Origin: Escherichia coli
Lineage (GTDB): Bacteria; Pseudomonadota; Gammaproteobacteria; Enterobacterales; Enterobacteriaceae
Reading direction: 5' to 3' (one strand)
DNA length: 64,000 nt
NCBI RefSeq assembly: GCF_024700885.2
Contig: NZ_CP117016.1
Shown in pieces: positions 13,037-63,631 of this stretch. The translations under genes and the position numbers were made by a program. The notes under the pieces were generated by a model that made no database searches, was not told the DNA's origin, and worked only from the letters and a program-made list of their open reading frames with translations. Each line of letters begins with the position of its first letter. Within the stretch, counting starts at the first letter, position 1.

Positions 13037-13042
13037 TTATTG

Positions 13043-13606: not shown

Positions 13607-13882
13607 GTGGCTTCTGTTTCTATCAGCTGTCCCTCCTGTTCAGCTACTGACGGGGTGGTGCGTAACGGCAAAAGCACCGCCGGACATCAGCGCTATCTCT
13701 GCTCTCACTGCCGTAAAACATGGCAACTGCAGTTCACTTACACCGCTTCTCAACCCGGTACGCACCAGAAAATCATTGATATGGCCATGAATGGCGTTGG
13801 ATGCCGGGCAACTGCCCGCATTATGGGCGTTGGCCTCAACACGATTTTACGTCACTTAAAAAACTCAGGCCGCAGTCGGTAA
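13607..13882 (+). CDS. insA: IS1 InsA
   Basis: 91 aa starting [24 protein letters not shown] (zinc finger plus HTH). Confidence 0.9.
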
Positions 13883-45400: not shown

Positions 45401-45597
45401 TGGGGACTTCCACTGCAGGCAGCGGGATGACGTTCTCTCCCTCACAGAATGGCACATCACTGGACCTGCAGGCCGGACTGGAAGCCCGTGTCCGGGAAAA
45501 TATCACCCTGGGCGTTCAGGCCGGTTATGCCCACAGCGTCAGCGGCAGCAGCGCTGAAGGGTATAACGGTCAGGCCACACTGAATGTGACCTTCTGA
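42479..45597 (+). pseudogene. flu: Antigen 43 self-associating autotransporter with an apparent 1-nt deletion frameshift near 44768-44771
   Basis: Start MKRHLNTCYRLVWNHITGAF; passenger and beta-barrel domains present, C-terminus …GQATLNVTF. The reading frame shifts after …GGIARG (window cgtgggccacg; the +1 frame continues TPESSGSYGFVRLEGDL…). Confidence 0.8.
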
Positions 45598-49176: not shown

Positions 49177-49995
49177 ATGCGACTAGCCAGTCGTTTTGGT
49201 TATGCGAACCAGATACGCCGTGACCGTCCGCTGACACACGAAGAACTGATGCACTATGTGCCGGGGATTTTCGGGGAAGATAAACACACGTCCCGAAGCC
49301 AGAACTATACGTACATCCCCACCATCACCGTACTGGAAAGCCTGCAGCGGGAAGGCTTTCAGCCATTCTTCGCCTGCCAGACCCGTGTGCGCGACCCGGG
49401 CCGCCGGGGATACACAAAACACATGCTGCGTCTGCGGCGGGCCGGAGAGATAAACGGAGAACATGTCCCTGAAATTATTCTGCTCAACTCTCATGACGGT
49501 ACCTCCAGCTACCAGATGCTGCCGGGGTACTTCAGGTTCGTCTGCCAGAACGGCTGCGTCTGTGGTCAGTCTCTGGGGGAAGTACGTGTTCCGCACCGGG
49601 GAAATGTGGTGGACAGAGTCATTGAAGGGGCTTACGAGGTGGTGGGCGTGTTTGACCGGATAGAGGAGAAGCGTGATGCCATGCAGTCGCTGGTCCTGCC
49701 GCCACCGGCACGCCAGGCGCTGGCACAGGCGGCACTGACTTACCGTTATGGTGACGAACATCAGCCCGTCACCACCGCCGACATTCTGACGCCGCGACGC
49801 CGGGAGGATTACGGTAAGGACCTGTGGAGCGCATATCAGACCATCCAGGAGAATATGCTGAAAGGCGGGATTTCCGGTCGCAGTGCAAAAGGAAAACGTA
49901 TCCATACCCGGGCCATTCACAGCATTGATACCGACATTAAGCTCAATCGCGCATTGTGGGTGATGGCAGAAACGATGCTGGAGAGCCTGCGCTGA
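49177..49995 (+). CDS. DUF932-domain protein (YafZ/YfjQ-like)
   Basis: 272 aa; typical member of the CP4-island conserved gene set; AGGAG RBS. Confidence 0.65.
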   Translation: MRLASRFGYANQIRRDRPLTHEELMHYVPGIFGEDKHTSRSQNYTYIPTITVLESLQREGFQPFFACQTRVRDPGRRGYTKHMLRLRRAGEINGEHVPEIILLNSHDGTSSYQMLPGYFRFVCQNGCVCGQSLGEVRVPHRGNVVDRVIEGAYEVVGVFDRIEEKRDAMQSLVLPPPARQALAQAALTYRYGDEHQPVTTADILTPRRREDYGKDLWSAYQTIQENMLKGGISGRSAKGKRIHTRAIHSIDTDIKLNRALWVMAETMLESLR

Positions 49996-50076
49996 TGCCG
50001 TTTCCCTGAGTGAGGGAATCATTCAGCTTTCGTTCCTGAAAAACACACATTTATTTGTTATTTAAGGAGTTATCTC

Positions 50077-50556
50077 ATGAAAACCGTTTCTCAGAATACC
50101 CCCACAATTTATTCAGCTACAACACCAGAGAATAATCCGCCTCAGTTGGTTGCCAGCCTCGTCCCTGATGAACAGCGCATCAGCTTCTGGCCGCAGCATT
50201 TTGGCCTCATTCCACAGTGGGTGACCCTGGAGCCCCGTGTCTTCGGCTGGATGGACCGTCTGTGCGAAGACTACTGCGGTGGTATCTGGAATCTGTACAC
50301 CCTGAACAACGGCGGGGCATTTATGGCACCCGAACCGGATGACGATGATGACGAAACATGGGTACTGTTCAATGCCATGAACGGTAACCGCGCAGAAATG
50401 AGCCCGGAAGCCGCCGGTATTGCCGCCTGTCTGATGACGTACAGTCATCATGCCTGTCGTACGGAGAATTATGCCATGACGGTCCATTATTACCGGTTGC
50501 GGGATTACGCCCTGCAGCATCCGGAATGCAGCGCCATTATGCGCATCATCGACTGA
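50077..50556 (+). CDS. Antirestriction protein (ArdB/KlcA family; YfjX/YafX-like)
   Basis: 159 aa with an acidic stretch (PEPDDDDDETW) and ArdB-like architecture. Confidence 0.65.
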   Translation: MKTVSQNTPTIYSATTPENNPPQLVASLVPDEQRISFWPQHFGLIPQWVTLEPRVFGWMDRLCEDYCGGIWNLYTLNNGGAFMAPEPDDDDDETWVLFNAMNGNRAEMSPEAAGIAACLMTYSHHACRTENYAMTVHYYRLRDYALQHPECSAIMRIID

Positions 50557-50571
50557 ATGGAGAGAAGCACA

Positions 50572-51048
50572 ATGCAACAACTTTCCTTTCTGCCCGGAGA
50601 GATGACGCCCGGCGAGCGCAGCCTCATTCAACGGGCCCTGAAAACCCTGGACCGCCATCTTCATGAACCCGGCGTGGCCTTCACCTCCACCCGTGCGGCA
50701 CGGGAATGGCTGATTCTGAACATGGCGGGACTGGAGCGTGAAGAGTTCCGGGTGCTGTATCTGAATAACCAGAATCAGCTGATTGCCGGTGAAACCCTCT
50801 TCACCGGCACCATCAACCGCACGGAAGTCCATCCCCGGGAAGTGATTAAACGCGCCCTGTACCACAATGCCGCTGCCGTGGTACTGGCACACAATCACCC
50901 GTCCGGTGAAGTCACACCCAGTAAGGCAGACCGGCTTATCACCGAACGTCTGGTACAGGCACTGGGCCTGGTGGATATCCGGGTGCCGGACCATCTGATA
51001 GTCGGTGGCAACCAGGTTTTCTCCTTTGCCGAACATGGTCTGCTTTAA
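50572..51048 (+). CDS. yeeS: RadC-like JAB-domain protein
   Basis: JAMM motif HNHPSGEVTPSKAD; start MQQLSFLPGEM with GGAGAG RBS. Confidence 0.8.
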   Translation: MQQLSFLPGEMTPGERSLIQRALKTLDRHLHEPGVAFTSTRAAREWLILNMAGLEREEFRVLYLNNQNQLIAGETLFTGTINRTEVHPREVIKRALYHNAAAVVLAHNHPSGEVTPSKADRLITERLVQALGLVDIRVPDHLIVGGNQVFSFAEHGLL

Positions 51049-51110
51049 CCCTTCACAACCACATCACACCTGTTTTCACTTTTATCTTCTGTCTTCAGAG
51101 GTATCCCATT

Positions 51111-51332
51111 ATGAAAATTATCACCCGTGGTGAAGCCATGCGTATTCACCAACAACATCCGACATCCCGTCTTTTTCCGTTCTGTACCGGTAAATACCGC
51201 TGGCACGGCAGTGCTGAAGCGTATACCGGTCGTGAAGTGCAGGATATTCCCGGTGTGCTGGCCGTGTTTGCTGAACGCCGTAAGGACAGTTTTGGTCCGT
51301 ATGTCCGGCTGATGAGCGTCACCCTGAACTGA
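51111..51332 (+). CDS. yeeT: DUF987-family protein
   Basis: 73 aa from MKIITRGEAMRIHQQHP; conserved position upstream of cbeA. Confidence 0.7.
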   Translation: MKIITRGEAMRIHQQHPTSRLFPFCTGKYRWHGSAEAYTGREVQDIPGVLAVFAERRKDSFGPYVRLMSVTLN

Positions 51333-51405
51333 GTGGGAATTCTGATGAGCAGAATTATCGCCACTACCGGACCATTCTTAGCCGATTTTCTGTAAGGATT
51401 TTATC

Positions 51406-51774
51406 GTGTCAGACACACTCCCCGGGACAACACTTCCCGACGACAATCACGACCGCCCCTGGTGGGGGCTGCCCTGCACCGTGACGCCCTGTTTCGGGGC
51501 ACGTCTGGTGCAGGAGGGTAACCGGTTGCATTACCTTGCCGACCGCGCCGGTATCAGAGGCCTGTTCAGCGATGCAGATGCGTACCACCTGGACCAGGCC
51601 TTTCCGCTGCTGATGAAACAACTGGAACTCATGCTCACCAGCGGTGAACTGAATCCCCGCCATCAGCATACCGTCACGCTGTATGCAAAAGGGCTGACCT
51701 GCAAAGCCGATACCCTCAGCAGTTGTGGTTACGTTTATCTGGCTGTTTATCCGACGCCCGAAATGAAAAATTAA
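51406..51774 (+). CDS. cbeA: Type IV antitoxin CbeA (cytoskeleton bundling-enhancing factor)
   Basis: 122 aa from MSDTLPGTTLPDDNHDRPWWGL; immediately upstream of the cbtA remnant. Confidence 0.8.
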   Translation: MSDTLPGTTLPDDNHDRPWWGLPCTVTPCFGARLVQEGNRLHYLADRAGIRGLFSDADAYHLDQAFPLLMKQLELMLTSGELNPRHQHTVTLYAKGLTCKADTLSSCGYVYLAVYPTPEMKN

Positions 51775-51862
51775 CTCTCCAGAATAGCCTTCTGCTACGG
51801 CCTGGTGTTTTCACCACGCCACTTTTCCATTTTTATATCTGCATATCAGGAAAATCTTCAGT

Positions 51863-52054
51863 ATGAAAACATTACCTGTATTACCCGGGCAGGCGGCCAG
51901 TTCTCGCCCGTCTCCTGTTGAAATCTGGCAGATACTGCTGTCCCGACTGCTGGACCAGCACTATGGCCTCACACTGAATGACACACCTTTTGCCGATGAA
52001 CGTGTGATTGAGCAGCATATTGAGGCAGGCATTTCACTGTGTGATGCGGTGAAC
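51863..52054 (+). pseudogene. cbtA: CbtA toxin gene truncated after codon 64 by insertion of a Mu-like prophage
   Basis: N-terminal 64 residues [64 protein letters not shown] are intact; the sequence then switches abruptly to a phage-end sequence starting TGATGCGCC at 52055. Confidence 0.8.
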
Positions 52055-52132
52055 TGATGCGCCGCGCGATAAATGCACTCTATCTTGTGCGATAAATGGC
52101 ATCCACGCGGCGTTTCATTATTTGAAAAAGAA

Positions 52133-52705
52133 TTACATTTCAGGTTGCGTTATGACAGTCCCAACAGGGTGATAGCGGTAGATCGTTGACAGTCCAATAT
52201 CATAGATAATTGCCAGCCGCTTTCTGTCATACCCTTTCTGGAGCAATCTTGCGATCTGCTCATGCTGCTCCTTCGTCAGTTTCGGGCGACGTCCTCCAAC
52301 TCTTCCTTGTGCTCGCGCAGCAGCCAGTCCAGCCAGCGTGCGCTCAACTATCAGTTCACGCTCCATTTCTGCCAGTGCACCCATCATATGAAAAAAGAAC
52401 CTTCCCATCGGAGTGCTGGTATCGATTGAATCCGTCAGACTGCGAAAATTGACACCTTTTGCGCGTAGCTCTTCTGTGAGAGCAATGAGGTGTTTCATTC
52501 TTCTACCCAACCGATCCAGCTTCCAGACCACCAATGTATCCCCTCTTTTAAGGCACTTTAAAGCGCGTTTCAGGCCTGGTCGTTCCGACTTGGTTCCGCT
52601 CATTTTGTCCTCAAAAATCTGTTCACATCCTGCGCACATTAATGCATTGCGTTGCAAATCTGTGTTTTGGTCATTTGTTGACACACGTATGTAGCCAATC
52701 AGCAT
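52133..52705 (-). CDS. Serine recombinase, DNA invertase of the Gin/Pin/Hin/Cin family
   Basis: 190 aa from MLIGYIRVSTNDQNTDLQRNAL (catalytic Ser in YIRVST), C-terminal HTH; AAGGGAG RBS. The ORF-track extension to 52834 is discounted. Confidence 0.8.
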   Translation of the reverse strand: MLIGYIRVSTNDQNTDLQRNALMCAGCEQIFEDKMSGTKSERPGLKRALKCLKRGDTLVVWKLDRLGRRMKHLIALTEELRAKGVNFRSLTDSIDTSTPMGRFFFHMMGALAEMERELIVERTLAGLAAARAQGRVGGRRPKLTKEQHEQIARLLQKGYDRKRLAIIYDIGLSTIYRYHPVGTVITQPEM

Positions 52706-52776
52706 TAAAAATACTCCCTTTTGAGTGGTTAAAGTACTGAGATAATGTGGGGAGGATTTGAGAGATAAACGTTGGT

Positions 52777-53205
52777 TTGGGGGAAGGCTCGGCGCTGCCC
52801 GTTGGTGTACCTGTTCCGTGGCCCACTGCCACACCGCCAGCAGGCTGGTTAAAGTGCGACGGGCGCGCCTTTACAAAAGAACAATATCCTGTTCTGGCCA
52901 GAGTCTACCCGACCCTCCGTCTTCCCGATTTGCGCGGTGAGTTTATCCGTGGATGGGACGACGGGCGAAAAGTGGATACAGGGCGCGATCTGCTTTCACG
53001 GCAGGATGGTACAAGTTTTTCTCATTACGCAGGTAATTTTGACATTGGGTCTGGTCATTCAATCAATAACTATGACCAAATCCTTGACAACCAACCTGGA
53101 TTCTCCCGTTTTTCATTTGCAGGTCCTTCGCGAGGCGATGGGGTTAATTATGTGACCATTCGTCCCCGTAACATTGCGTTTAATTACATCGTAAGGGCGG
53201 CATAG
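52777..53205 (+). other. Promoterless alternative tail-fibre C-terminal cassette B (no start codon of its own), inverted relative to the tail-fibre gene
   Basis: Begins with the same ~200-bp block (GEGSALPVGVPVPWPTATPPAGWLKCDGRAFTKEQYPVLARVYPTLRLPDLRGEFIRGWD) as the 3' part of the tail-fibre gene, then diverges and ends …RPRNIAFNYIVRAA. Confidence 0.6.
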
Positions 53206-53215
53206 AAACGTTGGT

Positions 53216-53677
53216 TTGGGGGAAGGCTCTGCATTGCCTGTTGGTGTACCGGTTCCATGGCCCACCGCCACACCGCCAGCAGGCTGGTTACAGTGCAACG
53301 GAGCTACGTTCACCAAAGAACAATATCCTGTTCTGGCCAGAGTCTACCCGACCCTCCGTCTTCCCGATTTGCGCGGTGAGTTTATCCGTGGATGGGACGG
53401 TGGTCGCAAGGTTGATACCGGGCGTGCGCTACTTTCATTTCAGGAAGGGACTATCGTATCCGGTTTTGATGATAATGATACCGGAGATATCAGTTCGCTC
53501 GGCTCTACACAATACGGATTTGGTGACGCTTTAACCTCTAATCAACTGGGGGTCTTAAATGGCAAAAAGTGGATATTTGATGCATCCTCTAAAGGTGCAC
53601 AAAGATATGACTGGTGGGCTTATGTATCAGCTCGCCCCCGCAATATCGCATTTAACTATATCGTGAGGGCGGCGTGA
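53216..53677 (+). other. Promoterless alternative tail-fibre C-terminal cassette C
   Basis: Same conserved block as cassette B with a different variable region; ends …RPRNIAFNYIVRAA. Confidence 0.6.
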
Positions 53678-53683
53678 TACCGT

Positions 53684-54298
53684 TCAGCCGGCAAGCGCCA
53701 GTGGCGCTTCCGGCCAGCTGATTTCAGGTGCCTTGCTGATATCCAGTGCGTTCAGCTCGTCGATATAATCCAGCACGGCGTTCAGTTTTGCCGTTTCTTC
53801 TGGTTTCAGACTGCGACCAGCACGCAGTTTGAGGTTGATAAGATCGACGGACGCCATCGCCTGTTTCACCCGTTGCTGGCGTTGCTGTCTGGCAACCTCC
53901 AGTTCTGCGGCTCGCTGCCGTTCAGTATCGGTTACCCACGCCTCACCGTTCCAGGTATCCCATGGCGTGGCTGGCTGTTTTGTGGTGGTGTCCGCCGGGT
54001 AATCACCCGGTTGGGTAATCAGAACGGGGTTACCGTTCTCCGTGCTGTATACCGTCTCGCCGCGGTGATCAGGCACATGCTCCCACCCGTTCAGCGTGGC
54101 AGTCCGGCAAACCACGTAACCCGAAATTGCTTCCGGCGGTGCATCGGCGCACGAATGTGCCGGAGTACCCACCCCAAGGGCGAGATACTCCACAGAGGAT
54201 GAGGTGTATTCCCGGGTTTCCTCGTCATAGTGATATACAGTGATATCGCCCGCTACAGTGGCGATACCGTTTTCATCCAGAACTGCAGTGTTACTCAT
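53684..54298 (-). CDS. Tail fibre assembly protein (Tfa; Mu U-like)
   Basis: 204 aa immediately downstream of the tail-fibre gene with ATGA overlap. Confidence 0.75.
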   Translation of the reverse strand: MSNTAVLDENGIATVAGDITVYHYDEETREYTSSSVEYLALGVGTPAHSCADAPPEAISGYVVCRTATLNGWEHVPDHRGETVYSTENGNPVLITQPGDYPADTTTKQPATPWDTWNGEAWVTDTERQRAAELEVARQQRQQRVKQAMASVDLINLKLRAGRSLKPEETAKLNAVLDYIDELNALDISKAPEISWPEAPLALAG

Positions 54299-55971
54299 TA
54301 AACTGCCCTCACAATGTAATTAAGTGCAATGCTACGGGGTCTGACAGTGATACCCTTCGCATACCCGCTTCTGATAGAGGTCAGAATAGTAGCCTGCATA
54401 CCATTGTCTGACATTGCCACGACAGGATCGCTGAATGTTGTCCCGTCCGGCATTTTAAAGCTGCCCTCACGAAGGTCTGTAATGGAATCTTCATTGTTGA
54501 ATCCCATGCCGACTATCCCCGAGGTTCCCGTAGTGTCCTGGTTATAATAATCCAGCATTGCTGTTCTTAACAGCGTTGCCCCTTGTGCGGACAGCAACTT
54601 ACGTCCTGTATCAACTTTGCGCCCGTCGTCCCATCCACGGATAAACTCACCGCGTAAATCGGGAAGACGGAGGGTCGGGTAGACTCTGGCCAGAACAGGA
54701 TATTGTTCTTTTGTAAAGGCGCGCCCGTCGCACTTTAACCAGCCTGCTGGCGGTGTGGCGGTGGGCCACGGAACAGGCACACCAACGGGTAGCGCCGAGC
54801 CTTCTCCTAAACCAAGGTAATTGAGGACATCTTTTATACTGCCCTTAGCGATAATAGCGCGACCAATAGCTGTAAGGGTTGCCAGCTCTGCGCGGTCTGC
54901 TCCGGTAAAATAAGGCAACCGATCTGCTGCAGTGGCAAGTCCTGCCAGAGCAGTGAGCGTGGCATCTGCCGGTTGTTTTCCGTTTGCCAGATCGTATGCA
55001 GCCTTGACCGCTTTCGGTGTGGCGGCCAGTATTTCAGACGTGCTGTTGATGGCACTGCTCAATTGTACGGTGCCTTTTGCCGTCAGCGAGGCAGCAGGCA
55101 CTCCCGTTATCTGACTCCACGGGTGAGTGTGGCTGACGGGCGCCTTGCCGGCTGCAAGGTCGTATGCAGCCTTGACCGCCTTCGGCGTGGCAGCCTCAGT
55201 TTCTGATTGACTGTCCGTGGCGCTGCTCAGTTGTACGGTGCCTTTTGCCGTCAGCGAGGCAGCAGGCACTCCCGTTATCTGACTCCACGGGTGAGTGTGG
55301 CTGACGGGCGCCTTGCCGGCTGCAAGGTCGTATGCAGCCTTGACGGCCTTTGGTGTGGCGGCCAGCGTTTCAGAGGTGCTGTTGGTGTCACTGCTCAATT
55401 GTACGGTGCCTTTTGCCGTCAGCGAGGCAGCAGGCACTCCCGTTATCTGACTCCACGGGTGAGTGTGGCTGACGGGCGCCTTGCCGGCTGCAAGGTCGTA
55501 TGCAGCCTTGACCGCCTTCGGCGTGGCAGCCTCAGTTTCTGATTGACTGTCCGTGGCGCTGCTCAGTTGTACGGTGCCTTTTGCCGTCAGCGAGGCAGCA
55601 GGCACTCCCGTTATCTGACTCCACGGGTGAGTATGGCTGACGGGGGCCTTGCCGGCAGCCAGGTCATATGCAGCCTTGACGGCCTTTGGTGTGGCGGCCA
55701 GCGTTTCAGAGGTGCTGTTGGTGGCACTGCTCAGTTGGGTGAACCCCTTAGCTGTCAGTGTCGCGTCCGGGTGGTTACGGGAACGTACGTGTTCAGCCAG
55801 TGACTGTGCGGCTTCCTCCGTTTTTTTCTTCAGCCATTTCGTCCTGTTTGCCAGTTGCCGGGGGGCTCGATTTGATATCCCGTCTGCACCACCCAGAACC
55901 GGATCTGATGTCTCCAGTTGATAGATATTTTCTTCCCACTTTTCTGTTTCATTCAGGTTTCCCATAATCAA
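54298..55971 (-). CDS. Tail fibre protein (Mu S-like) with internal tandem repeats and collar-type C-terminus
   Basis: 557 aa with five copies of a 56-aa repeat (TAKGTVQLSS…AATPKAVKAAYDLAAGKAPVSHTHPWSQITGVPAASL) and a C-terminus sharing the GEGSALPVGVPVPWP block with cassettes B and C. Confidence 0.85.
   Translation of the reverse strand: MIMGNLNETEKWEENIYQLETSDPVLGGADGISNRAPRQLANRTKWLKKKTEEAAQSLAEHVRSRNHPDATLTAKGFTQLSSATNSTSETLAATPKAVKAAYDLAAGKAPVSHTHPWSQITGVPAASLTAKGTVQLSSATDSQSETEAATPKAVKAAYDLAAGKAPVSHTHPWSQITGVPAASLTAKGTVQLSSDTNSTSETLAATPKAVKAAYDLAAGKAPVSHTHPWSQITGVPAASLTAKGTVQLSSATDSQSETEAATPKAVKAAYDLAAGKAPVSHTHPWSQITGVPAASLTAKGTVQLSSAINSTSEILAATPKAVKAAYDLANGKQPADATLTALAGLATAADRLPYFTGADRAELATLTAIGRAIIAKGSIKDVLNYLGLGEGSALPVGVPVPWPTATPPAGWLKCDGRAFTKEQYPVLARVYPTLRLPDLRGEFIRGWDDGRKVDTGRKLLSAQGATLLRTAMLDYYNQDTTGTSGIVGMGFNNEDSITDLREGSFKMPDGTTFSDPVVAMSDNGMQATILTSIRSGYAKGITVRPRSIALNYIVRAV
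54980..55810 (-). repeat. Intragenic tandem repeat, 168-bp unit, about 5 copies (336-bp higher-order alternation)
   Basis: The motif ttgtacggtgccttttgccgtcagcgaggcagc recurs at 55063, 55231, 55399 and 55567, with a diverged copy near 55735. Confidence 0.8.
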
Positions 55972-56546
55972 CTGCTCCCGTGGTTATAACTGCCATCATG
56001 GATGGCGGTATTGTTATAGCGAATGGCCACAGACTGATACTCCAGGCTGGCCAGATGGCAGCGGGCCGGTGCAAATGCAGCGAGCGTCTGACGCAGCATC
56101 GCGGCCTGATCGTTAGTAATGGGCTGTTTCAGAATAACGCGATAAACTGCCCAAGCGGCTGCATCTCCATGAACAAACAGTCCGTTATAGCTGCGATTGC
56201 CGTCGTAACTGAGACGACCTGTGCCTTCAATCAGATCCACTTCACCAAAGCCAAAACGGCGGATAACTTCCCGGATTGACCACGGCGTCCCTTTATACCG
56301 GTGCAGTTCGATGGCTGCTTTTATAAGCATGCGGCGAACATCGTCCGATTCCGCCAGCTCCCAGCCATCGCCAGACAGTGAGAACTGCTCGCCCAGCCAT
56401 GGCAGCGCGGAACTGTCGACGATATCGACGAGAAAGACCATCAGTACGCTCAGGTCGATGTTATCCAGCCGTCCTGCCAGTCTTCCCAGCGTCCTGAGAC
56501 TGATATCACCCTCAAGCGGTGGCGGGAGTTGTAATGGCTCAGTCAT
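55968..56546 (-). CDS. Tail protein (Mu gp48 / P2 gpI-like)
   Basis: 192 aa between the baseplate J-like gene and the tail fibre; start overlaps upstream gene. Confidence 0.65.
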   Translation of the reverse strand: MTEPLQLPPPLEGDISLRTLGRLAGRLDNIDLSVLMVFLVDIVDSSALPWLGEQFSLSGDGWELAESDDVRRMLIKAAIELHRYKGTPWSIREVIRRFGFGEVDLIEGTGRLSYDGNRSYNGLFVHGDAAAWAVYRVILKQPITNDQAAMLRQTLAAFAPARCHLASLEYQSVAIRYNNTAIHDGSYNHGSS

Positions 56547-57642
56547 CAGACACTCCAGTCATGTTAAGAGTGATTGCCGTACAGTTTGCCCATTCGTTTT
56601 CTGCCACCACCCGCAGTGCCGGTGTCACCAGTTCAACCTGGTACACCCCGGAAACGGACAATGCACTGATAATCTGGCTGGGGACAATATCGCGCCCCAG
56701 CGTGGCGGCACGTGATGCCACCCAGTTCTGTATGGCGCTGTTAGCGGCATCTTTTACAGACCTGGCATCCTGATCACGATAGATCGTAATCTTGGCTTCA
56801 ATGGTGTAATCCACCTTCACTGGTGTTTTAGCCCGCACTGTATCAGTGAGTGGCCTGACTTTCTCATCAGAGCAGAAACTCTCTACCAGCGTGAGAACAC
56901 CGCCGTCCGGCAGACCGGTACTGAGCAGCGGATACAGATCTACGGTCCCGGGAACCGGGGAAAGCACAGCAACATCGACAATGTTGGGATGGGCCTGCAT
57001 GGCATGAAAGCGGTATGCGCCACGGCTTCCGGCATTGGTGAATGACTCCGGGGCCAGCCTGATACGCTCCCGGAGCCTGTCATCGTCTTCCTGTTCTGAA
57101 CCGCCGGAACTGGCCGTCAGATTGCTCACCAGCAGGTCGACGTTATCAATCTCATCGAGTAACTGACTGACCTGCGCAGGTTGCCAGCCGTTACCAGCGG
57201 TACCGGGTTCGGTACAGGTGGACGTGACATTGACCAGCAGCAATCCGGCCTTCAGTACCACATCTGTATCGGTGGCAAAAATAACGCTGTCGGAAGCGCT
57301 GACGCGGGTGCCTGCCGGGATCAGCACATCAATGGCCAGTGCCTCATCTACGGAGAACTGGAGCGTGGTAGTGGCAGGCTGCGCGGCAAGACGGTATACA
57401 CCGACCAGTTCACCGAGGTAATCAATCATCGGCTCACGGGCAAAGGCGACCAGATTCTGCTTTGCTGCCTCCTGTACCGCAACCCTGACCAGCATTTCGC
57501 GATAGGCCCACAGATCAATCAGCAGACGTTCTGCCTGTGCCGGGTACAGCGTTTTGCCGGTATCCGCTTCATACTTCGCAATCATTTCTGCCGTGATTTT
57601 GTCGGCATCGCGTTCAATAAAATCGGGTTCTGTCAGCGCCAT
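56539..57642 (-). CDS. Baseplate J-like protein (Mu gp47)
   Basis: 367 aa; conserved position. Confidence 0.75.
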   Translation of the reverse strand: MALTEPDFIERDADKITAEMIAKYEADTGKTLYPAQAERLLIDLWAYREMLVRVAVQEAAKQNLVAFAREPMIDYLGELVGVYRLAAQPATTTLQFSVDEALAIDVLIPAGTRVSASDSVIFATDTDVVLKAGLLLVNVTSTCTEPGTAGNGWQPAQVSQLLDEIDNVDLLVSNLTASSGGSEQEDDDRLRERIRLAPESFTNAGSRGAYRFHAMQAHPNIVDVAVLSPVPGTVDLYPLLSTGLPDGGVLTLVESFCSDEKVRPLTDTVRAKTPVKVDYTIEAKITIYRDQDARSVKDAANSAIQNWVASRAATLGRDIVPSQIISALSVSGVYQVELVTPALRVVAENEWANCTAITLNMTGVSDD

Positions 57643-57980
57643 AGCAGCTCCTGAGTCCGGGTCTGTCCGTCTGAGCCTTTCCAGCTCACCCGGAGCGTAA
57701 GATGTTCGCCGTCGACGGCGGGTTTAACTGACATAAGCTGGCAGCGGGGCTCCCAGCGCCGGATGGCATCGACGGATTCGCGCACCACATGCGGAATGGC
57801 CCGGTCTACAGGCCAGTCGATATAAAGATGCAGATTGCTGCCGAACTCCGGGCGATGCGGGTCGCTGCCGCGGGGAGTCCGCAGGATAATTTGAATCGCC
57901 TGCCGGATATCATCCAGCCCCCGGACAATTTCGCCGGGAGCCTGCAGGGTCGGTTGCCAGAATACTGAGGTTGTTTTCAT
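57633..57980 (-). CDS. Baseplate wedge protein (GPW/gp25 family; Mu gp46)
   Basis: 115 aa; position between the spike and J-like genes. Confidence 0.7.
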   Translation of the reverse strand: MKTTSVFWQPTLQAPGEIVRGLDDIRQAIQIILRTPRGSDPHRPEFGSNLHLYIDWPVDRAIPHVVRESVDAIRRWEPRCQLMSVKPAVDGEHLTLRVSWKGSDGQTRTQELLWR

Positions 57981-58034
57981 GGGGGCAGTATTGCCCCCGT
58001 GCGGGAACGCTGATATTAAAGGCGTTTAAAAAGC

Positions 58035-58631
58035 TCAGTGGGAGTGGTGGCTGGAGTTTTCGCCATCAGACAACATACTGCCCGTGGCATGGGCATTCCC
58101 TTTAATCTCGATATTGCCATGGATGGTCGCGGTAACACCTTCACCACCAGAACCCGCCATGCCTCCTTCGTAAATCAGCTTACCCCTGACACGCAGATCT
58201 CCGGTAAGTTCGGTTTCCGGTGCGTCAATCGTGGCTTTCTGTGTTTTCAATACCACATCAGCACCACACTCAATGACAATATGCTCAATGCCGCCCCGGA
58301 TGGTCAGAGTGTGCGTCTTCCGGTTGTAGCTGTACTCTGCACCATCAGCAAACCGGGTTCCCCGGATATTTTTGTCACTGAACGGTGGTTTATCGACGTC
58401 TGAATACACCGCGCCCAGAATAACACCATCCTCGCCGTTGGCATCGAGCAGCACCTCAACCTGCTCCCCCACGTCAGGGAGCCAGTAATCTTTGTTATCC
58501 TGGGTATTGCGCTGCAGCACGTTAAGCCAGTTTGTGCGCAGGTTATCGCATTCAGGCAGACGAACGCGGGCCTGAACCCTGTCGGCATCAACGGCACTGA
58601 CCGTACCGACCTGACGAGTGACACCAGTCAT
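58035..58631 (-). CDS. Baseplate spike/assembly protein V-like (Mu gp45)
   Basis: 198 aa with a C-terminal glycine-rich tip. Confidence 0.7.
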   Translation of the reverse strand: MTGVTRQVGTVSAVDADRVQARVRLPECDNLRTNWLNVLQRNTQDNKDYWLPDVGEQVEVLLDANGEDGVILGAVYSDVDKPPFSDKNIRGTRFADGAEYSYNRKTHTLTIRGGIEHIVIECGADVVLKTQKATIDAPETELTGDLRVRGKLIYEGGMAGSGGEGVTATIHGNIEIKGNAHATGSMLSDGENSSHHSH

Positions 58632-59782
58632 TTTTTCTTCTCCTTAATCACCGTCGATGTACTGCCATCCGGGTGATAAACCGTGAGTTTCTGAGTTTTT
58701 TGTTTTTTCCCTCTTGTGACTGGCCCCCGTGCCACTTCCAGCTCTGTGGTGTAGCCGCTGTTACGGTCAAACGCATGGCGGGCAGTGGTTATGAGCCATG
58801 GCCCGGATAACTGCCCAAAACCCACCAGTTCAATTTTGTTGCCTGCTGTCAGTTGAGGTGTTCCCGTCAGCGTCAGGGAGCCGTTCTGCTGGTATTCGTT
58901 ATGTCTGGCCAGTGCTGAATCCGCTTTAATCCGGGCACTGTCCGGGTCGCTGACGCGGCTGTTAACTTTAAGTGAGTCAGCGCTGGTAACCTTACCACCT
59001 TTGAGCTTTTTGTCGCTTTCACGGGTACCACCATCAGCTTCGTAGACGATCAGTTTTTTACTGCTGCTTTTCTGGTGTTTTACCTTTGCAGATTTATAGA
59101 CCCGGTTGATGGTGTCACGCAGGGAAAAGCGGGCCACATCCTGCGGTTTTAACTGCCTGACCGGCTCCTGACTGCGCAGTGTGGCCAGATGAGAAAAAAT
59201 CAGCTGGTCACTGACCACTTTCACTGCATAACCATACTCGCTGGCCAGCCGGCGCAGAAAACCCACGTCGGTTTCAGCATACTGGGTCACCCGGTCGATT
59301 CTGATGGACTCAATGCTGCCCACCAGTTTCAGTCGGTGCTTTCTGGCAATCCGCCCCGCAACAGCTGCCAGCGTGGTGTTCTCAAAACCACGACTGGTTT
59401 TAGTCCGCAGGGCACTGTTAACCGAGGTGGCCACCCCACGGATAGAAACAACGGAAGCGGGCGAACTCACTTCGATCTCGTCTATAGAGAACGTACCGCA
59501 GGACAGCAGCTTCTCGCCCTGATAGCCCATTTTCAGCGTCAGCGTGTCACCCTTGCCCGGATACCATTTATCCAGCCAGCGGCCATCGGTGTCGTCCAGC
59601 TCCACCTCAATGGTATCGGACTCATTTTTGATGTTATCGCTCCAGGTCACACGGGTGACATAAGGCGCGATATCAGAGGTGATGTTTTTCTGCAGATACC
59701 ACAAAGTGAACACCGGTGTCAGCACATCGCTGACGCCGGTTAACGCTGATGTGACTTGCGCAGTGCTGTTTATCTCAGCCAT
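58628..59782 (-). CDS. Baseplate hub protein (phage late control D family; Mu P/gp44-like)
   Basis: 384 aa; position after the tail X-like gene. Confidence 0.7.
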   Translation of the reverse strand: MAEINSTAQVTSALTGVSDVLTPVFTLWYLQKNITSDIAPYVTRVTWSDNIKNESDTIEVELDDTDGRWLDKWYPGKGDTLTLKMGYQGEKLLSCGTFSIDEIEVSSPASVVSIRGVATSVNSALRTKTSRGFENTTLAAVAGRIARKHRLKLVGSIESIRIDRVTQYAETDVGFLRRLASEYGYAVKVVSDQLIFSHLATLRSQEPVRQLKPQDVARFSLRDTINRVYKSAKVKHQKSSSKKLIVYEADGGTRESDKKLKGGKVTSADSLKVNSRVSDPDSARIKADSALARHNEYQQNGSLTLTGTPQLTAGNKIELVGFGQLSGPWLITTARHAFDRNSGYTTELEVARGPVTRGKKQKTQKLTVYHPDGSTSTVIKEKKK

Positions 59783-59985
59783 GGGGCAATATCCTCTTCT
59801 GTACGGGCTTCTTCAGCCTCAATCACCGGGATCAGTAACAACAGCCCGGAGGGCAGCACCGGCGTGATGGCCACGTGCGGATTGGCGGCAATAATCCGGG
59901 GATAGCCCAGCGGGTCACCGTAGTACTGCCATGCCAGCGAATCCCAGCGCTCTCCGTCACGGGTAACATGTTCAAGAAACATCAC
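59770..59985 (-). CDS. Tail protein X-like (LysM-like)
   Basis: 71 aa; motif DSLAWQYYGDPLGYPRIIAANPHVA. Confidence 0.55.
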   Translation of the reverse strand: MMFLEHVTRDGERWDSLAWQYYGDPLGYPRIIAANPHVAITPVLPSGLLLLIPVIEAEEARTEEDIAPWLR

Positions 59986-60866
59986 ACACTCCTCGTCAGT
60001 ATTCTGGCGGCCATTGCACTTAATTCCGGAGACATGCGGTTGAATGCTGTGCCGGCGGCGTTAAGCTGCCCGGAAACGGTATCCAGAGCACCTGCAATAT
60101 TTCTTTTGTCCACACCACTCAGCGCAGACTGTGCCTGCTGTACATACGTGGCTGCTTCGCTGGCTGTTCTGGCCAGACTGATGGCATCGGGCATGGATTC
60201 AGAGAGTGCGTTAAACGCCGGAACACTTTTCCCCAGAGCCCCGGAGATATTACCCAGTCCGCTCATCAGCCCCGGCACACGGGTCAGTGCGACAACGGGG
60301 TTATCCTTCATTTTCTGTGTCACCCGAACGGCGCTGATAGTGGTCTGGAGTACAGACTGCGCCTGTTTCGCATAGTTGACGCCGTTGCGGATGAACTGCG
60401 CCACCCCTGAAGGTGAAGGTATGGCACCGGAGACCGCCCCGACACCCGGGAGCTTCGTGCGTATTGCCGGTGGTTGCAGAGGATTTTTCGGGTCACCGGT
60501 GTATTCCCGGAGAGACACGGTGGCACTGACAGCCAGCACGTTGCCGGTACTGTCAGTCTGCTCGCTGGTTGCAGTCACATCGGTAATCACGAACCAGCCG
60601 CGATAGTCACCGTTGCCGAAGACCAGCGCCAGTGCCTGATGGGCTTTCATGGCTGTTCGCAGTCTCGCCAGCTCCACATCGGGTACACAATAATGCTGAT
60701 GGAAAACCAGAGTTATCTGGATTTCGTCCAGCCTGTCGCCGACGAACTGCAGGCCAGGCTTACCCCCGATGCGGGCATGCTCCGCATAATCGACGCCGAA
60801 CGTGGCCTCGAAGCCGTCCCAGTAGGTAATCAGCTCAAACTCAATATCACCCAGTACGGCAAACAT
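59982..60866 (-). CDS. Tail protein at the Mu gpN / P2 gpU position
   Basis: 294 aa directly downstream of the tape measure gene; assignment is by position only. Confidence 0.45.
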   Translation of the reverse strand: MFAVLGDIEFELITYWDGFEATFGVDYAEHARIGGKPGLQFVGDRLDEIQITLVFHQHYCVPDVELARLRTAMKAHQALALVFGNGDYRGWFVITDVTATSEQTDSTGNVLAVSATVSLREYTGDPKNPLQPPAIRTKLPGVGAVSGAIPSPSGVAQFIRNGVNYAKQAQSVLQTTISAVRVTQKMKDNPVVALTRVPGLMSGLGNISGALGKSVPAFNALSESMPDAISLARTASEAATYVQQAQSALSGVDKRNIAGALDTVSGQLNAAGTAFNRMSPELSAMAARILTRSV

Positions 60867-63556
60867 CAGCGGTACTCCTTACGTTGTTTCTGAGCCAGCA
60901 GACGCTCCAGCATTTTTTCCAGCTCATGCAGACTCATATTCAGGGCACCAGTCAGTCCTGCAGGCGCTGTGGTTTCCCTGCCATTGAGGAAAAACTGAGG
61001 ATTAAAGCTGACCTGGATACCACCAGACGTTCCACCGCCGGTTGCAGCTGCACCACGGCCTGAATATCCGGCAGCCAGGATTTCAGGCGAGGGGATACGG
61101 GGAACATCCGGTGTCATCTCATTTGCCAGACGTTGCCCTGGTAAAATCGATGCCCGGGTGGAGAGCGGAATAGCGGGCATGGAAGACAAACTATTGATTA
61201 CGGCTCCGATCGCATTTTTAGCAGACGACATAAACCCATTGATATCGGGCAACGGCATACTGAAGCGAACACCTGAAGTGTTATCCCGTATTTCTGGCCC
61301 CTGGATGCTCACGGGCATTCTGGGGAGCAGTTCACTGGCCATTCGCTGCCCGGCCAGAGCTGCAAGCGGAGTGGTCCGCTGCAGGCCAATGGCGGCCCCC
61401 TGCGCGATATTGTCACCAAAGCCCATAAACACGCGGCTCGGCGAATGAATGCCCAGCTTTTCGCTGAACCAGCCACTGATGCTGTCACCCATTCCGGTTA
61501 CACTGGATTTGAGCGACTCCCATTTGTTTTTGATACCGTTAATCAGACCATCGACAAGATGGCCACCGAAGTCGGTAAACTTTGCCGGCAGATCAACACC
61601 AAGATATTTCAGCGCAGCTGCAAAGGCTTTATAGAGCAGGCCTGCCGGCGACCAGTTAATCAGTAACTTACCAATTCCCACAATGCCGCCGTTAAAGGCT
61701 TCCTGAATGTCTGCCCAGCGCTGTTTAAACCAGCCACTGACTGCCCCCCAGTTGCGGTAGATAAGGTAAGCTGCTGCCGCGACAGCGGTGATAACGAGAC
61801 CGATGGGATTCATCATCAGCGCACGTCCAATCCAGAGAACAGCACGTCCGGCGAGCATAATTCCGCGAACCAGCCCCCCGGAGAGCACGCCACTCAGTGT
61901 TCTGGCTCCTCTGGCGACGGCGCTAAATCCGGTCACCAGCCAGCGGAGCTTACCGCCTTGCCCCAGTGCGAGCGACAGACGAAGCCAGTTGGCCCGAAGT
62001 AAAACAGCATTTTTCCAGACACTTACAAAGGGGGAAATAAGGAGATTCAGCCCCAGTTTGAGACCAACAGTCGCTATCTTAATCGCAAGGAGCGCACTGA
62101 TGAGCTTAAAAGCCCCACTGACAAATTGCGGGTGAGTCGCTACCCAGTGTTTTGCCCCCTGAATGAGTGGAAGCAGTTCCTGAGTCAAAGAAATAAAAGA
62201 TGGAGCTAATTGATCGCCCAGCGTAATTGCCAGATCGCGACTGCTGACCATAAGTGTTTTAGTGGCTTCAAGGGGAGATTTCAGCCGCTGATCATAAGCA
62301 CTGGCAAGCAAATCGTTATCCGCAGCCCTGAGAGCACCGGCACGGATCTCTCGATATCTGTCCATGTTGGCCAGCATCGGGCGGATAAATGCCATGACCT
62401 GCATATCCGCGAACATATCGCCCAGACCAAAGTTTTTCGCCAGAGCCTGAAGTGCCTCATCTCTTGCCGTATCATTCTTTATTTTCATGGCTGATTTGAA
62501 GCCGGCCAGCGCTTCGGGGCTTTTGGCATTGAGGTAACGTTCTATAACACTCAACATCCCTTCAATCGGAGAGATCCCCGCAGCTTTATAACTCGCAATA
62601 GATCCCTGCAAATCAATACCCAGATCAGCAAACTGTTTCTGAGTATCGCGGGCAAAAATTTTGGTAAGAAAGTTTTTAAAATTATTGGCTGCTTCGTCGG
62701 TGGAACCTGCACCGATTTTTGCTATCTGGAGACTGGCCCCGATTTCAGCAACAGCCTCTTTTCCACTGGCAATACCCGCCATCATTGGGGCCAGGGACTG
62801 CATCCACTTGACCTGATCCGGGATTTCAAATGACCCCTGGTCACCGGCATAAGCCATAATATTCTGAACGGCACCAAAATCTCTGGCCGCACCTTTCAGG
62901 GAGTTTTGCCAGACTGCGGCCACTTTTGCCCAGTCCTGAGCAGACGTGCGTGTTGCCGTTGCCGCGCGGGCAATATCCGGCATCAGAAAACCGATATCTG
63001 ACACATTATCAATATTGTCGCTGATGAGTGAACCCACCGCCTCCTGCAGCTCATCCTGATACTGATTGTATTTAAGCGCCCAGCCTTTTATCTGTCCGGC
63101 AAGTCCATCCCGCGTTTTATTGTCATATTTTGCGGTGATCGACATATCAATCATTTTGTCCTGAAAAGACATGGACTGCTGAACGGCAGGGGAAACCGTA
63201 TGATAAACAGTCTGTGCCATGCCATACGCTTCAATCCCCTGACCATACAGCGCCATGCGGTTAGCTTTCAGCGCATCACTGGTAGCGGATGCCGCTGACA
63301 GACGGCGCTGCTGGCGCTCAATTTGCTCCATGGTGCGGCTTACCCGCAGCAGCTCGCTGTTGAGATGCTGCATCCGGGAAGAACCCAGTTGACCATAACG
63401 TTCTGTTGCACGGGTTAAAGCGTTCTGACGTTCCTGCAGGCGGCGTGAGGTATCGCTCAGGGAATCAAGCGCACGGCGGGTACCGCTCATTGCAGAACGG
63501 AATGTGCTACCAATCATCCCGCCGATAACAACGCCGACTGAAAACTGTCCCGACAT
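60866..63556 (-). CDS. Tail tape measure protein
   Basis: 896 aa, largely alpha-helical with hydrophobic central segments, located between the chaperone and baseplate genes. Confidence 0.8.
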   Translation of the reverse strand: MSGQFSVGVVIGGMIGSTFRSAMSGTRRALDSLSDTSRRLQERQNALTRATERYGQLGSSRMQHLNSELLRVSRTMEQIERQQRRLSAASATSDALKANRMALYGQGIEAYGMAQTVYHTVSPAVQQSMSFQDKMIDMSITAKYDNKTRDGLAGQIKGWALKYNQYQDELQEAVGSLISDNIDNVSDIGFLMPDIARAATATRTSAQDWAKVAAVWQNSLKGAARDFGAVQNIMAYAGDQGSFEIPDQVKWMQSLAPMMAGIASGKEAVAEIGASLQIAKIGAGSTDEAANNFKNFLTKIFARDTQKQFADLGIDLQGSIASYKAAGISPIEGMLSVIERYLNAKSPEALAGFKSAMKIKNDTARDEALQALAKNFGLGDMFADMQVMAFIRPMLANMDRYREIRAGALRAADNDLLASAYDQRLKSPLEATKTLMVSSRDLAITLGDQLAPSFISLTQELLPLIQGAKHWVATHPQFVSGAFKLISALLAIKIATVGLKLGLNLLISPFVSVWKNAVLLRANWLRLSLALGQGGKLRWLVTGFSAVARGARTLSGVLSGGLVRGIMLAGRAVLWIGRALMMNPIGLVITAVAAAAYLIYRNWGAVSGWFKQRWADIQEAFNGGIVGIGKLLINWSPAGLLYKAFAAALKYLGVDLPAKFTDFGGHLVDGLINGIKNKWESLKSSVTGMGDSISGWFSEKLGIHSPSRVFMGFGDNIAQGAAIGLQRTTPLAALAGQRMASELLPRMPVSIQGPEIRDNTSGVRFSMPLPDINGFMSSAKNAIGAVINSLSSMPAIPLSTRASILPGQRLANEMTPDVPRIPSPEILAAGYSGRGAAATGGGTSGGIQVSFNPQFFLNGRETTAPAGLTGALNMSLHELEKMLERLLAQKQRKEYR

Positions 63557-63631
63557 AGTGGTTAACCTCCGGGGAAGGTGAAAAGACGTGAGGGGATAAC
63601 GCAGAACAGCCGCTACTGGCGGCTGTCTGTA

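What the first reader, a model, noticed from the sequence alone, without database searches (positions are those of the whole stretch)
51863..52140. Mu-like transposable prophage inserted inside the cbtA toxin gene of a cbeA–cbtA pair
cbtA is intact for 64 codons and then the sequence switches at 52055 to TGATGCGCCGCGCGATAAATGC…, which resembles the Mu right-end transposase-binding sites; the invertase gene ends only about 78 bp inside. The toxin is disrupted while the antitoxin cbeA remains whole. Transposable phages insert near-randomly, so this is a datable insertion event with a predictable 5-bp target duplication at the far end.
Basis: partly seen in the sequence, partly recalled or inferred. 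Interest (0 to 1): 0.65.

Follow-up and report, generated by a model that had tools for sequence, protein, structure and literature searches.

The report
BcepMu-like transposable prophage splitting cbtA
A 37-kb transposable prophage that is common in E. coli has jumped into the cbtA toxin gene of the CP4-44 island, splitting it cleanly and leaving the antitoxin gene intact; this is a real but ordinary event of a known kind.

Summary
The window is E. coli MLI114. cbtA runs for 64 codons (51863-52054), and phage DNA starts at 52055 (TGATGCGCC...). The invertase gene ends 78 bp inside.

The other prophage end lies outside the window, 37,120 bp away in the RefSeq chromosome. It is followed by cbtA codons 63-124 and yeeW. 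Removing the prophage and one repeat copy restores a 124-aa CbtA ORF. A 270-bp stretch across the restored junction is 100% identical to K-12.

Two details need correction.
- **Target duplication:** it is 6 bp (GTGAAC), not 5 bp. All five insertions of this prophage family that I examined have 6-bp duplications.
- **Phage type:** it is not Mu proper but a BcepMu-like (Bcepmuvirus) transposable phage.
  - The transposase has only an rve domain. It is 68% identical to BcepMu gp09 and shows no BLASTP similarity to MuA.
  - The early operon is inverted, so Mor lies at the far end.
  - The motif G[C/A]GATAWWT sits at positions 12-20 and 35-43 of both ends, as in BcepMu.

The phage is 99.6% identical to the deposited Escherichia phage PhiKM. 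It occurs at many sites in about 11% of complete E. coli genomes, including ST131. Only this genome has the cbtA insertion. Low interest.

The parts
51406..51774 (+). cbeA (yeeU), type IV antitoxin gene, intact (122 aa)
   Evidence: ORF. RefSeq annotates it as WP_001285585.1, the same protein as in strain 720632, whose locus carries no prophage.
51863..52054 (+). cbtA (yeeV) 5' fragment, codons 1-64. The next triplet, TGA at 52055-52057, comes from the phage terminus and ends the ORF.
   Evidence: It is 100% identical to K-12 cbtA up to the junction.
52049..52054 (.). Near copy of the 6-bp target-site duplication GTGAAC. The second copy follows the far prophage end, outside the window.
   Evidence: Removing one copy together with the prophage restores intact cbtA.
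52055..52132 (.). Invertase-proximal prophage terminus. It starts with 5'-TG and carries the putative transposase-binding motif GCGATAAAT at 52066-52074 and 52089-52097 (positions 12-20 and 35-43 from the end).
   Evidence: The motif sits in the same register at the other end of this prophage and at both ends of BcepMu. The terminal 22 nt are 17/22 identical to the Mu right end.
52133..52705 (-). Gin/Pin-type serine DNA invertase gene (190 aa)
   Evidence: phrog_125 DNA invertase, E = 1.3e-94. RefSeq calls it a 'recombinase family protein'.
52767..54818 (.). Invertible tail-fibre region. It holds three homologous recombination arms, alternative fibre C-terminal cassettes (52777-53205 and 53216-53677) and a tail-fibre assembly gene (53684-54298, minus strand).
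   Evidence: Repeats. Segment 53208-54815 is inverted in the window relative to the RefSeq record of the same strain.
54298..55971 (-). Tail-fibre gene (557 aa in this orientation) with 4 x 168-bp internal tandem repeats
55968..63556 (-). Baseplate and tail module: gpI-like, gpJ-like, gpW-like, gpV-like, gpD-like, gpX-like, a 294-aa tail protein and the tape-measure protein (896 aa)
   Evidence: ORFs. RefSeq product names. PhiKM annotation.
63557..64000 (-). 3' part of the tail assembly chaperone gene, with a TAG at 63777-63779. The prophage runs on for 25,174 bp beyond the window end.

Best explanation
A 37,120-bp BcepMu-like (Bcepmuvirus-type) transposable myovirus has integrated by DDE transposition into codon 63/64 of cbtA. 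This cbtA is the cytoskeleton-binding toxin gene of the cbeA-cbtA type IV toxin-antitoxin pair in the CP4-44-like island of E. coli MLI114.

Shown:
- Both junctions are present.
- The element has TG...CA termini.
- A 6-bp direct repeat (GTGAAC) flanks it.
- Removing the element and one repeat copy exactly restores cbtA.

Inferred mechanism:
- The Tn552/IS1604-related transposase binds the paired G[C/A]GATAWWT sites at each end, and a B-type ATPase assists it.
- The transposase makes staggered cuts 6 bp apart in the target and joins the phage 3' ends to them.
- Repair of the gaps produces the 6-bp duplication.

Consequences:
- CbtA is truncated to 64 aa by a TGA supplied by the phage terminus.
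- cbeA stays intact.
- The cbtA 3' fragment and yeeW are displaced 37 kb downstream.

The window holds only the invertase-proximal 11.9 kb of the prophage.
For: **Far end and duplication**
- The cbtA 3' fragment and yeeW lie beyond the far end.
- The prophage is 37,120 bp long with TG...CA ends, and GTGAAC occurs on both sides.

**Empty site**
- The rebuilt site encodes an intact 124-aa CbtA.
- 270 bp across the rebuilt junction are 100% identical to K-12 MG1655.
- The junction is present in only 1 of 5426 genomes.

**The same prophage elsewhere**
- About 640 genomes carry it, at other sites.
- Each of the four other insertions examined has a 6-bp duplication:
  - lplA, TCAATG
  - between yehK and yehI, GCTGGT
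  - EcPF7, CCATTT
  - EC958, upstream of ycaL, GAAGAA
- The TCAATG and CCATTT cases are unambiguous at exactly 6 bp.

**Transposition proteins and gene order**
- The transposase has only an rve domain in Pfam.
- It is 68% identical to BcepMu gp09 and has no BLASTP similarity to MuA.
- The B ATPase is 59% identical to BcepMu gp08.
- Gene order matches BcepMu.
- The end motifs are in register with both BcepMu ends.

**Identity with known phages**
- The phage is 99.6% identical to phage PhiKM, which is classified as Bcepmuvirus.

**Literature**
- B3/Tn552-family transposable phages make 6-bp duplications and have TG-CA ends (PMC8705779).
- TG...CA termini are characteristic of BcepMu-related prophages with an Rve core (PMC2628397).
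Against: Nothing found contradicts integration by transposition. Some points remain open.
- For cbtA itself, the base after the repeat is T at both junctions. This site alone cannot fix the end to the nearest base, so the exact 6-bp length rests on the unambiguous lplA and EcPF7 insertions.
- Binding of the transposase to the repeated motif is inferred from position and conservation. It was not tested.
- This copy may no longer be a viable phage. It has a nonsense codon in the tail assembly chaperone gene and an extra G in a G-run in the neighbouring gene, relative to R3 and PhiKM.
Confidence: 0.96

Rival explanations
1. It is a true Mu-type (Muvirus) prophage. It would use a MuA-family transposase, make a 5-bp duplication and have the c-ner-A-B left end at the far junction.
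For: - The invertase-proximal terminal 22 nt are 17/22 identical to the Mu right end, and CGATAAATGC is shared with Mu R2.
- A gin-like invertase and an invertible fibre segment sit at this end, as in Mu.
- MuA and this transposase fall in the same remote-homology family, phrog_310.
Against: - The duplication is 6 bp in five of five insertions.
- The transposase shows no BLASTP similarity to MuA and lacks about the first 130 profile positions that MuA covers.
- The far end is next to Mor, with the early operon inverted.
- There is no com/mom between the invertase gene and the terminus: 78 bp here against about 1 kb in Mu.
- Megablast against the phage collection does not hit Mu.
Confidence: 0.02
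2. The junction is not a transposition product. It would instead be an assembly chimera, or a deletion or recombination that happened to join a prophage end to a truncated cbtA.
For: - Only one genome of 5426 shows the junction.
- The window and the RefSeq record differ by an inversion nearby.
Against: - Both junctions exist and are exactly complementary. The two cbtA halves plus one copy of GTGAAC rebuild the gene without loss or gain of a base.
- The breakpoints coincide with the same phage termini seen at four other loci.
- The nearby inversion lies between the invertase's own recombination arms, not at the junction.
Confidence: 0.01
3. The insertion is real but not neutral. Loss of CbtA would have been selected, for example because the toxin harms the phage or the host, or cbtA would be a preferred target.
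For: None directly. The toxin is hit and the antitoxin is spared, which is the non-lethal way to disrupt a toxin-antitoxin pair.
Against: - Among 646 genomes carrying the phage (719 places), this is the only one with the cbtA junction.
- The other sites examined are unrelated genes and intergenic regions.
- The five duplicated hexamers share no obvious consensus.
- The split gene shows no further decay: 270 bp across the rebuilt junction are 100% identical to K-12. That fits a recent chance event.
Confidence: 0.03

Closest known systems
Burkholderia phage BcepMu (genus Bcepmuvirus; Summer et al. 2004, cited in PMC2628397)
   Same: - Gene order is the same: Mor and GemA sit at one terminus on the reverse strand, followed by the B ATPase, the rve transposase and a divergent repressor, then holin/SLT, head and tail genes.
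- The transposase is 68% identical and the B ATPase 59% identical.
- The termini are TG...CA, with G[C/A]GATAWWT at positions 12-20 and 35-43 of both ends.
   Different: - The host differs (Escherichia against Burkholderia), and there is no nucleotide-level match by megablast.
- This phage ends in an invertase and an invertible multi-cassette tail-fibre region. BcepMu ends with a tail-fibre gene and an acyltransferase gene.
- This phage carries a Gam homologue and an adenine methylase gene.
Escherichia phage PhiKM (PQ738613.1) and the Bcepmuvirus prophage of ST131 E. coli (e.g. EC958, JJ1886)
   Same: - It is 99.6% identical to PhiKM over 24.5 kb.
- Both terminal regions are 100% identical in many genomes.
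- EcPF7 and others are about 100% identical over 24.5 kb.
- Bcepmuvirus prophages have been reported in ST131 genomes (bioRxiv 10.1101/2022.05.07.487787).
   Different: - The insertion site differs. Only MLI114 has the phage in cbtA.
- This copy carries a nonsense codon in the tail chaperone gene and a 1-bp insertion in the neighbouring gene.
Escherichia phage Mu (Muvirus)
   Same: - Both are transposable temperate myoviruses with A/B transposition genes, Gam, GemA and Mor.
- Both have TG...CA ends with two adjacent binding sites about 22-23 bp apart.
- Both have a Gin-type invertase and an invertible fibre segment at the right end.
   Different: - The duplication is 6 bp here and 5 bp in Mu.
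- The transposase is Tn552-related, with no BLASTP similarity to MuA.
- The early region is inverted.
- There is no com/mom, and no nucleotide similarity to Mu.
Pseudomonas phage B3 / Tn552-family transposable phages
   Same: - Tn552-related transposase.
- 6-bp target duplication.
- TG-CA ends (PMC8705779).
   Different: I did not compare it directly with B3. A megablast against the phage collection found only a 101-bp match within gam in a Pseudomonas phage.
CP4-44 cbeA-cbtA (yeeU-yeeV) type IV toxin-antitoxin pair of E. coli K-12
   Same: - The chromosomal locus is the same: cobUST on one side, and yeeW, tmaR, yeeA, sbmC, dacD and sbcB on the other.
- 270 bp of the rebuilt cbtA, spanning the junction, are 100% identical to K-12.
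   Different: The toxin gene is split by the prophage, and only codons 1-64 remain next to cbeA.

Membership tests
Transposable (Mu-like, 'saltovirus') phages in the broad sense | Encodes a DDE transposase and an AAA+ target-binding ATPase (A and B) | tested here: met
   - Transposase: phrog_310, E = 3.7e-147.
- B protein: phrog_296 DNA transposition protein, E = 2.2e-93.
- rve domain present.
- MuA and MuB fall in the same two PHROG families.
Transposable (Mu-like, 'saltovirus') phages in the broad sense | 5'-TG...CA-3' termini carrying inverted repeated transposase-binding sites | tested here: met
   The ends read TGATGCG... and ...TAATCA. The motif G[C/A]GATAWWT lies at positions 12-20 and 35-43 of both ends. 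Actual binding was not tested.
Transposable (Mu-like, 'saltovirus') phages in the broad sense | Short target-site duplication, and insertion at many different sites | tested here: met
   Five insertions have five different 6-bp duplications at five unrelated loci. There are 719 places in 646 genomes.
Transposable (Mu-like, 'saltovirus') phages in the broad sense | Virion DNA carries variable host DNA at its ends; replication is by replicative transposition | not testable with these tools
   This needs virion DNA sequencing or induction experiments.
Muvirus (phage Mu sensu stricto) | MuA-type transposase | tested here: not met
   BLASTP against MuA gives E = 0.48. The only Pfam hit with E <= 0.001 is rve. 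The PHROG match starts at profile position 130, whereas MuA starts at position 6.
Muvirus (phage Mu sensu stricto) | 5-bp target duplication | tested here: not met
   The duplication is 6 bp in 5 of 5 insertions, two of them unambiguous.
Muvirus (phage Mu sensu stricto) | Left end carrying c, ner, A and B transcribed inward; gin-com-mom at the right end | tested here: not met
   The far end is next to Mor, and the early operon is transcribed outward. The repressor gene is internal. Only 78 bp separate the invertase gene from the terminus, so there is no com/mom.
BcepMu-like phages (Bcepmuvirus) | Tn552/IS1604-related rve transposase and ExeA-type ATPase | tested here: met
   68% identity to BcepMu gp09 and 59% to gp08.
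BcepMu-like phages (Bcepmuvirus) | Genome organisation: an inverted early operon ending in GemA and Mor at one terminus, a divergent repressor, then lysis, head and tail genes | tested here: met
   The RefSeq annotation of the prophage matches the BcepMu annotation.
BcepMu-like phages (Bcepmuvirus) | Formal genus membership (nucleotide identity to the type species at ICTV thresholds) | tested here: inconclusive
   Megablast finds no match to BcepMu. The near-identical PhiKM is filed under Bcepmuvirus in NCBI taxonomy. I did not compute genome-wide identity.
cbeA-cbtA (CP4-44) type IV toxin-antitoxin pair | A 124-aa CbtA toxin gene directly downstream of cbeA, at the CP4-44 locus | tested here: met
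   The rebuilt ORF is 124 aa. 270 bp across the rebuilt junction are 100% identical to K-12. In this strain the toxin gene is interrupted.

The most novel reading that the evidence does not exclude
The most novel reading left open has two parts. First, the hit on a toxin gene might not be a chance event: CbtA-type toxins might interfere with this phage's lysogeny, so that cbtA-disrupted lysogens are favoured. Second, the Mu-like terminal sequence (17/22 identity to Mu R1, same two-site spacing), kept by a transposase with no pairwise similarity to MuA, might point to a conserved end-recognition architecture across very distant transposable-phage transposases. Neither part was tested here. The single occurrence among 646 phage-carrying genomes argues against the first.
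Probability: 0.04. Interest if true: 0.45.

Novelty: already known. Interest (0 to 1): 0.15.

Why it matters
It matters little beyond annotation.
- It gives a clean example of the 6-bp target duplication made by the Tn552-related (BcepMu/B3-type) transposable phages in E. coli. Five independent sites show it, which helps delimit these very common prophages. About 11% of complete E. coli genomes carry one, including ST131.
- For strain MLI114, the CP4-44 CbtA toxin is inactivated while CbeA remains.
- The insertion is a lineage-specific marker that could be used for typing or dating.

Tried and rejected
- **Far end in the window:** I searched the window for the far phage end and for the cbtA 3' part. 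Neither is there, so I used the public genome instead.
- **First comparator:** strain 720632 turned out to have its own frameshift in cbtA. I replaced it with a collection-wide search, where K-12 matches 100%.
- **Mu proper:** rejected on transposase, duplication length, gene order and nucleotide similarity.
- **5-bp duplication plus one chance-matching base:** considered for the cbtA site. Rejected because the lplA and EcPF7 insertions are flanked by exactly 6 repeated bases with mismatches on both sides.
- **Literature on the BcepMu duplication length:** the original BcepMu paper is not in the library. The 6-bp rule is cited from PMC8705779, which describes the B3/Tn552 family.
- **Technical failures:** one malformed reference and one script timeout gave nothing. 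Some fetched loci were not visible to Python, so I read those ends with get_sequence and typed them in.
- **PhiKM and host-DNA packaging:** I did not use the PhiKM record to test this, because that record is a partial, permuted assembly lacking the invertase region.

Full report
**1. The observation**

The window region 51000-53500 and the ORF list show the following.
- cbeA lies at 51406-51774 and encodes 122 aa.
- A 64-codon ORF at 51863-52057 begins [22 protein letters not shown] and ends ...SLCDAVN followed by TGA.
- The sequence from 52055 reads TGATGCGCCGCGCGATAAATGCACTCTATCTTGTGCGATAAATGG.
- A serine invertase gene on the minus strand has its stop codon at 52133, 78 bp inside the switch point (phrog_125 DNA invertase, E = 1.3e-94).

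A megablast of 51400-52700 against 5426 complete E. coli genomes found thousands of 100% matches that all stop at query base 656, which is window 52055. A single genome continues through the junction: strain MLI114, NZ_CP117013.1, a human stool isolate from Mali.

**2. Source of the window**

Outside the invertible segment, the overlap of window 49716-64000 with the fetched record is identical to its reverse complement, except for one SNP at 56154. Segment 53208-54815 is inverted in place. The window is therefore this strain, or a near-identical assembly of it.

**3. The far end**

The far end is not in the window. In the RefSeq record the phage DNA runs for 37,120 bp, from TGATGCG... to ...AAGTCTAATCA. 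It is followed directly by GTGAACTTTCTCGTGGAAAAATACGCG..., which is the rest of cbtA, and then by yeeW.

The hexamer GTGAAC occurs on both sides: at window 52049-52054 and again right after the far end. Deleting the prophage and one hexamer gives an uninterrupted 124-aa CbtA ORF. A 270-bp query spanning the rebuilt junction is 100% identical to K-12 MG1655 and many other strains. 4856 genomes hold at least 80% of that query uninterrupted.

**4. Length of the duplication**

At cbtA the base after the repeat is T on both sides, so this one site cannot by itself exclude a shift of one base. I therefore read both junctions of four other insertions of the same prophage.

| Site | Duplicated hexamer | Flanking bases |
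|---|---|---|
| Inside lplA (strain R3) | TCAATG | differ on both sides |
| Between yehK and yehI (B20123) | GCTGGT | match on both sides, so ambiguous |
| EcPF7 | CCATTT | differ on both sides |
| Upstream of ycaL (ST131 strain EC958) | GAAGAA | base after the repeat matches |

In all five cases the element is TG...CA and the repeat is 6 bp. The predicted 5-bp Mu-type duplication is wrong.

A 6-bp duplication is the published footprint of the B3/Tn552-family transposable phages, which also have TG-CA ends (PMC8705779). TG...CA termini are described as characteristic of BcepMu-related prophages with an Rve core (PMC2628397).

**5. What phage it is**

The RefSeq annotation of the prophage reads as follows, starting from the far end:
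- on one strand, Mor, gp16/GemA, several small genes, Gam, an ExeA-family ATPase, a 589-aa DDE transposase and small HTH genes;
- then a divergent HTH repressor, an adenine methylase, holin, SLT transglycosylase, head genes, sheath, tube and tape measure;
- then baseplate genes, the tail fibre, the invertible cassettes and the invertase at the near end.

This is the BcepMu layout, not the Mu layout.

Protein and sequence comparisons agree.
- The transposase has only an rve domain in Pfam. It is 68% identical to BcepMu gp09, annotated 'Tn552/IS1604 rve transposase'.
- It has no BLASTP similarity to MuA (E = 0.48). Both do fall into the remote-homology family phrog_310, where the prophage protein starts at about profile position 130 and MuA at position 6.
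- The B ATPase is 59% identical to BcepMu gp08.
- At nucleotide level the prophage is 99.6% identical over 24.5 kb to Escherichia phage PhiKM (PQ738613.1, from uropathogenic E. coli), which NCBI files under Bcepmuvirus. It is about 86% identical to Escherichia phage Phi06_2974 B and Klebsiella phage KP12. Mu is not hit.

**6. The ends**

Read inward, the two ends are:
- TGATGCGCCGC**GCGATAAAT**GCACTCTATCTTGT**GCGATAAAT**GG (invertase side)
- TGATTAGACTT**GAGATAAAT**GACAGGGAATAAGT**GAGATATTT**AT (Mor side)

Both ends of BcepMu carry the same motif, G[C/A]GATAWWT, at exactly the same positions, 12-20 and 35-43. These are very probably the paired transposase-binding sites. That is an inference from position and conservation.

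17 of the terminal 22 nt are identical, and none of 20,000 shuffles reached that value. The second motif lies one base out of register with Mu R2, which contains the same CGATAAATG. The likeness to the Mu left end is at chance level.

**7. How common it is**

- The Mor-side 1.5 kb occurs in 640 of 5426 genomes.
- The invertase-side 0.7 kb occurs in 721 genomes. Of its 807 places, 161 are on plasmids, and 143 records match at only 60-80% identity. I did not examine these. They probably reflect related invertase genes rather than this phage.
- 608 genomes hold at least 80% of a 24.5-kb stretch. There are 719 places in 646 genomes, with up to three copies per genome.
- The closest copies (EcPF7, FCI23, JMK_KBN3987, TUM1857) are about 100% identical over 24.5 kb but sit at other loci.
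- The many ST131 genomes, such as EC958 and JJ1886, carry it near 1.0 Mb. Bcepmuvirus prophages in ST131 have been reported (bioRxiv 10.1101/2022.05.07.487787).

The element is therefore a known, widespread and evidently mobile E. coli phage. Only its position in cbtA is peculiar to this strain.

**8. Context and consequences**

The locus is the CP4-44 island of K-12 geography.
- Upstream in the window lie the yersiniabactin island, shiA, amn, yeeN, yeeO, cbl, nac, ldtA and cobTSU. Next comes an IS-ridden island with a frameshifted agn43, followed by genes for a DUF932 protein, an antirestriction protein, the JAB/RadC-like YeeS and YeeT, and then cbeA.
- Beyond the prophage lie yeeW, tmaR, yeeA, sbmC, dacD and sbcB.

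The toxin is cut after Asn64, and a stop codon supplied by the phage terminus follows. From memory, not tested here, residue F65 of CbtA is needed for FtsZ binding, so the fragment is expected to be inactive. Losing the toxin of a toxin-antitoxin pair is harmless. Nothing suggests selection or targeting: this is one occurrence among about 700 insertions, and the five hexamers share no consensus.

**9. State of this copy**

Relative to R3 and PhiKM, the MLI114 prophage has two differences.
- CAG is changed to TAG in the tail assembly chaperone gene (window 63777-63779, minus strand). The change is synonymous in the overlapping frame, which probably encodes the frameshift product.
- An extra G sits in a G-run in the neighbouring small gene, outside the window.

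These may be real defects or consensus errors. The fibre segment lies in opposite orientations in two versions of the same genome, which points to an active invertase.

**10. Verdict**

Two corrections apply: the duplication is 6 bp, and the phage is BcepMu-like rather than Mu. The finding is a routine insertion of a known phage and deserves a low interest score.

Noticed in passing
window 52767-54818: The tail-fibre region has three ~230-nt homologous arms: 52767-53012 and 53206-53451 in direct orientation, and 54590-54818 inverted. It also holds three alternative fibre C-terminal cassettes but only one tail-fibre assembly gene (53684-54298). Segment 53208-54815 is inverted in the window relative to the RefSeq record of the same strain, so the invertase (52133-52705) appears to be active. 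In the RefSeq orientation the assembly gene is not co-oriented with the fibre gene.
   Followed up: partly
window 54977-55780: The tail-fibre gene contains four tandem copies of a 168-bp unit (56 aa each), 78-96% identical to the reference copy. The fibre gene length differs between copies of the prophage: 557 aa here, and 1995 bp in strains R3 and B20123.
   Followed up: no
window 63777-63779 (minus strand); L001 about 33375: The tail assembly chaperone gene has TAG where strains R3 and PhiKM have CAG. The change is synonymous in the overlapping reading frame, which is probably the frameshift product. The adjacent small gene, outside the window, has an extra G in a G-run. The prophage may be tail-defective, or these may be sequencing errors.
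   Followed up: partly
window 52055-52100 versus Mu right end (L006) and BcepMu ends (L007, L014): The terminal 22 nt are 17/22 identical to the Mu right end, and the two-site spacing is the same. Yet the transposase has no pairwise similarity to MuA. All four E. coli prophage and BcepMu ends share G[C/A]GATAWWT at positions 12-20 and 35-43.
   Followed up: partly
window about 42479-45597: The agn43 (antigen 43 autotransporter) gene of the CP4-44-like island is split into two ORFs (42323-44827 and 44845-45597). RefSeq annotates it as frameshifted.
   Followed up: no
window 1-14300: The window opens inside the yersiniabactin high-pathogenicity island (irp1, ybtU, ybtT, ybtE, fyuA). An IS1 copy and a truncated glycosyltransferase gene follow. 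Three tRNA-Asn genes lie among the chromosomal genes between here and the CP4-44-like island.
   Followed up: no
window 56154: A single-base difference between the window and NZ_CP117013.1. It is the only one outside the invertible segment in 49716-64000.
   Followed up: no
L002 (E. coli 720632), cbtA at locus 1964-2337: This strain's otherwise intact cbtA carries its own 1-bp frameshift about 28 bp downstream of the position hit by the prophage in MLI114. It is an independent inactivation of the same toxin gene.
   Followed up: no
L001 17873-18637 (outside the window): The prophage carries a Dam-like adenine methylase gene in its central region and has no com/mom module next to the invertase gene. 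The central 'accessory' region differs between copies: R3 and B20123 have other genes there.
   Followed up: no
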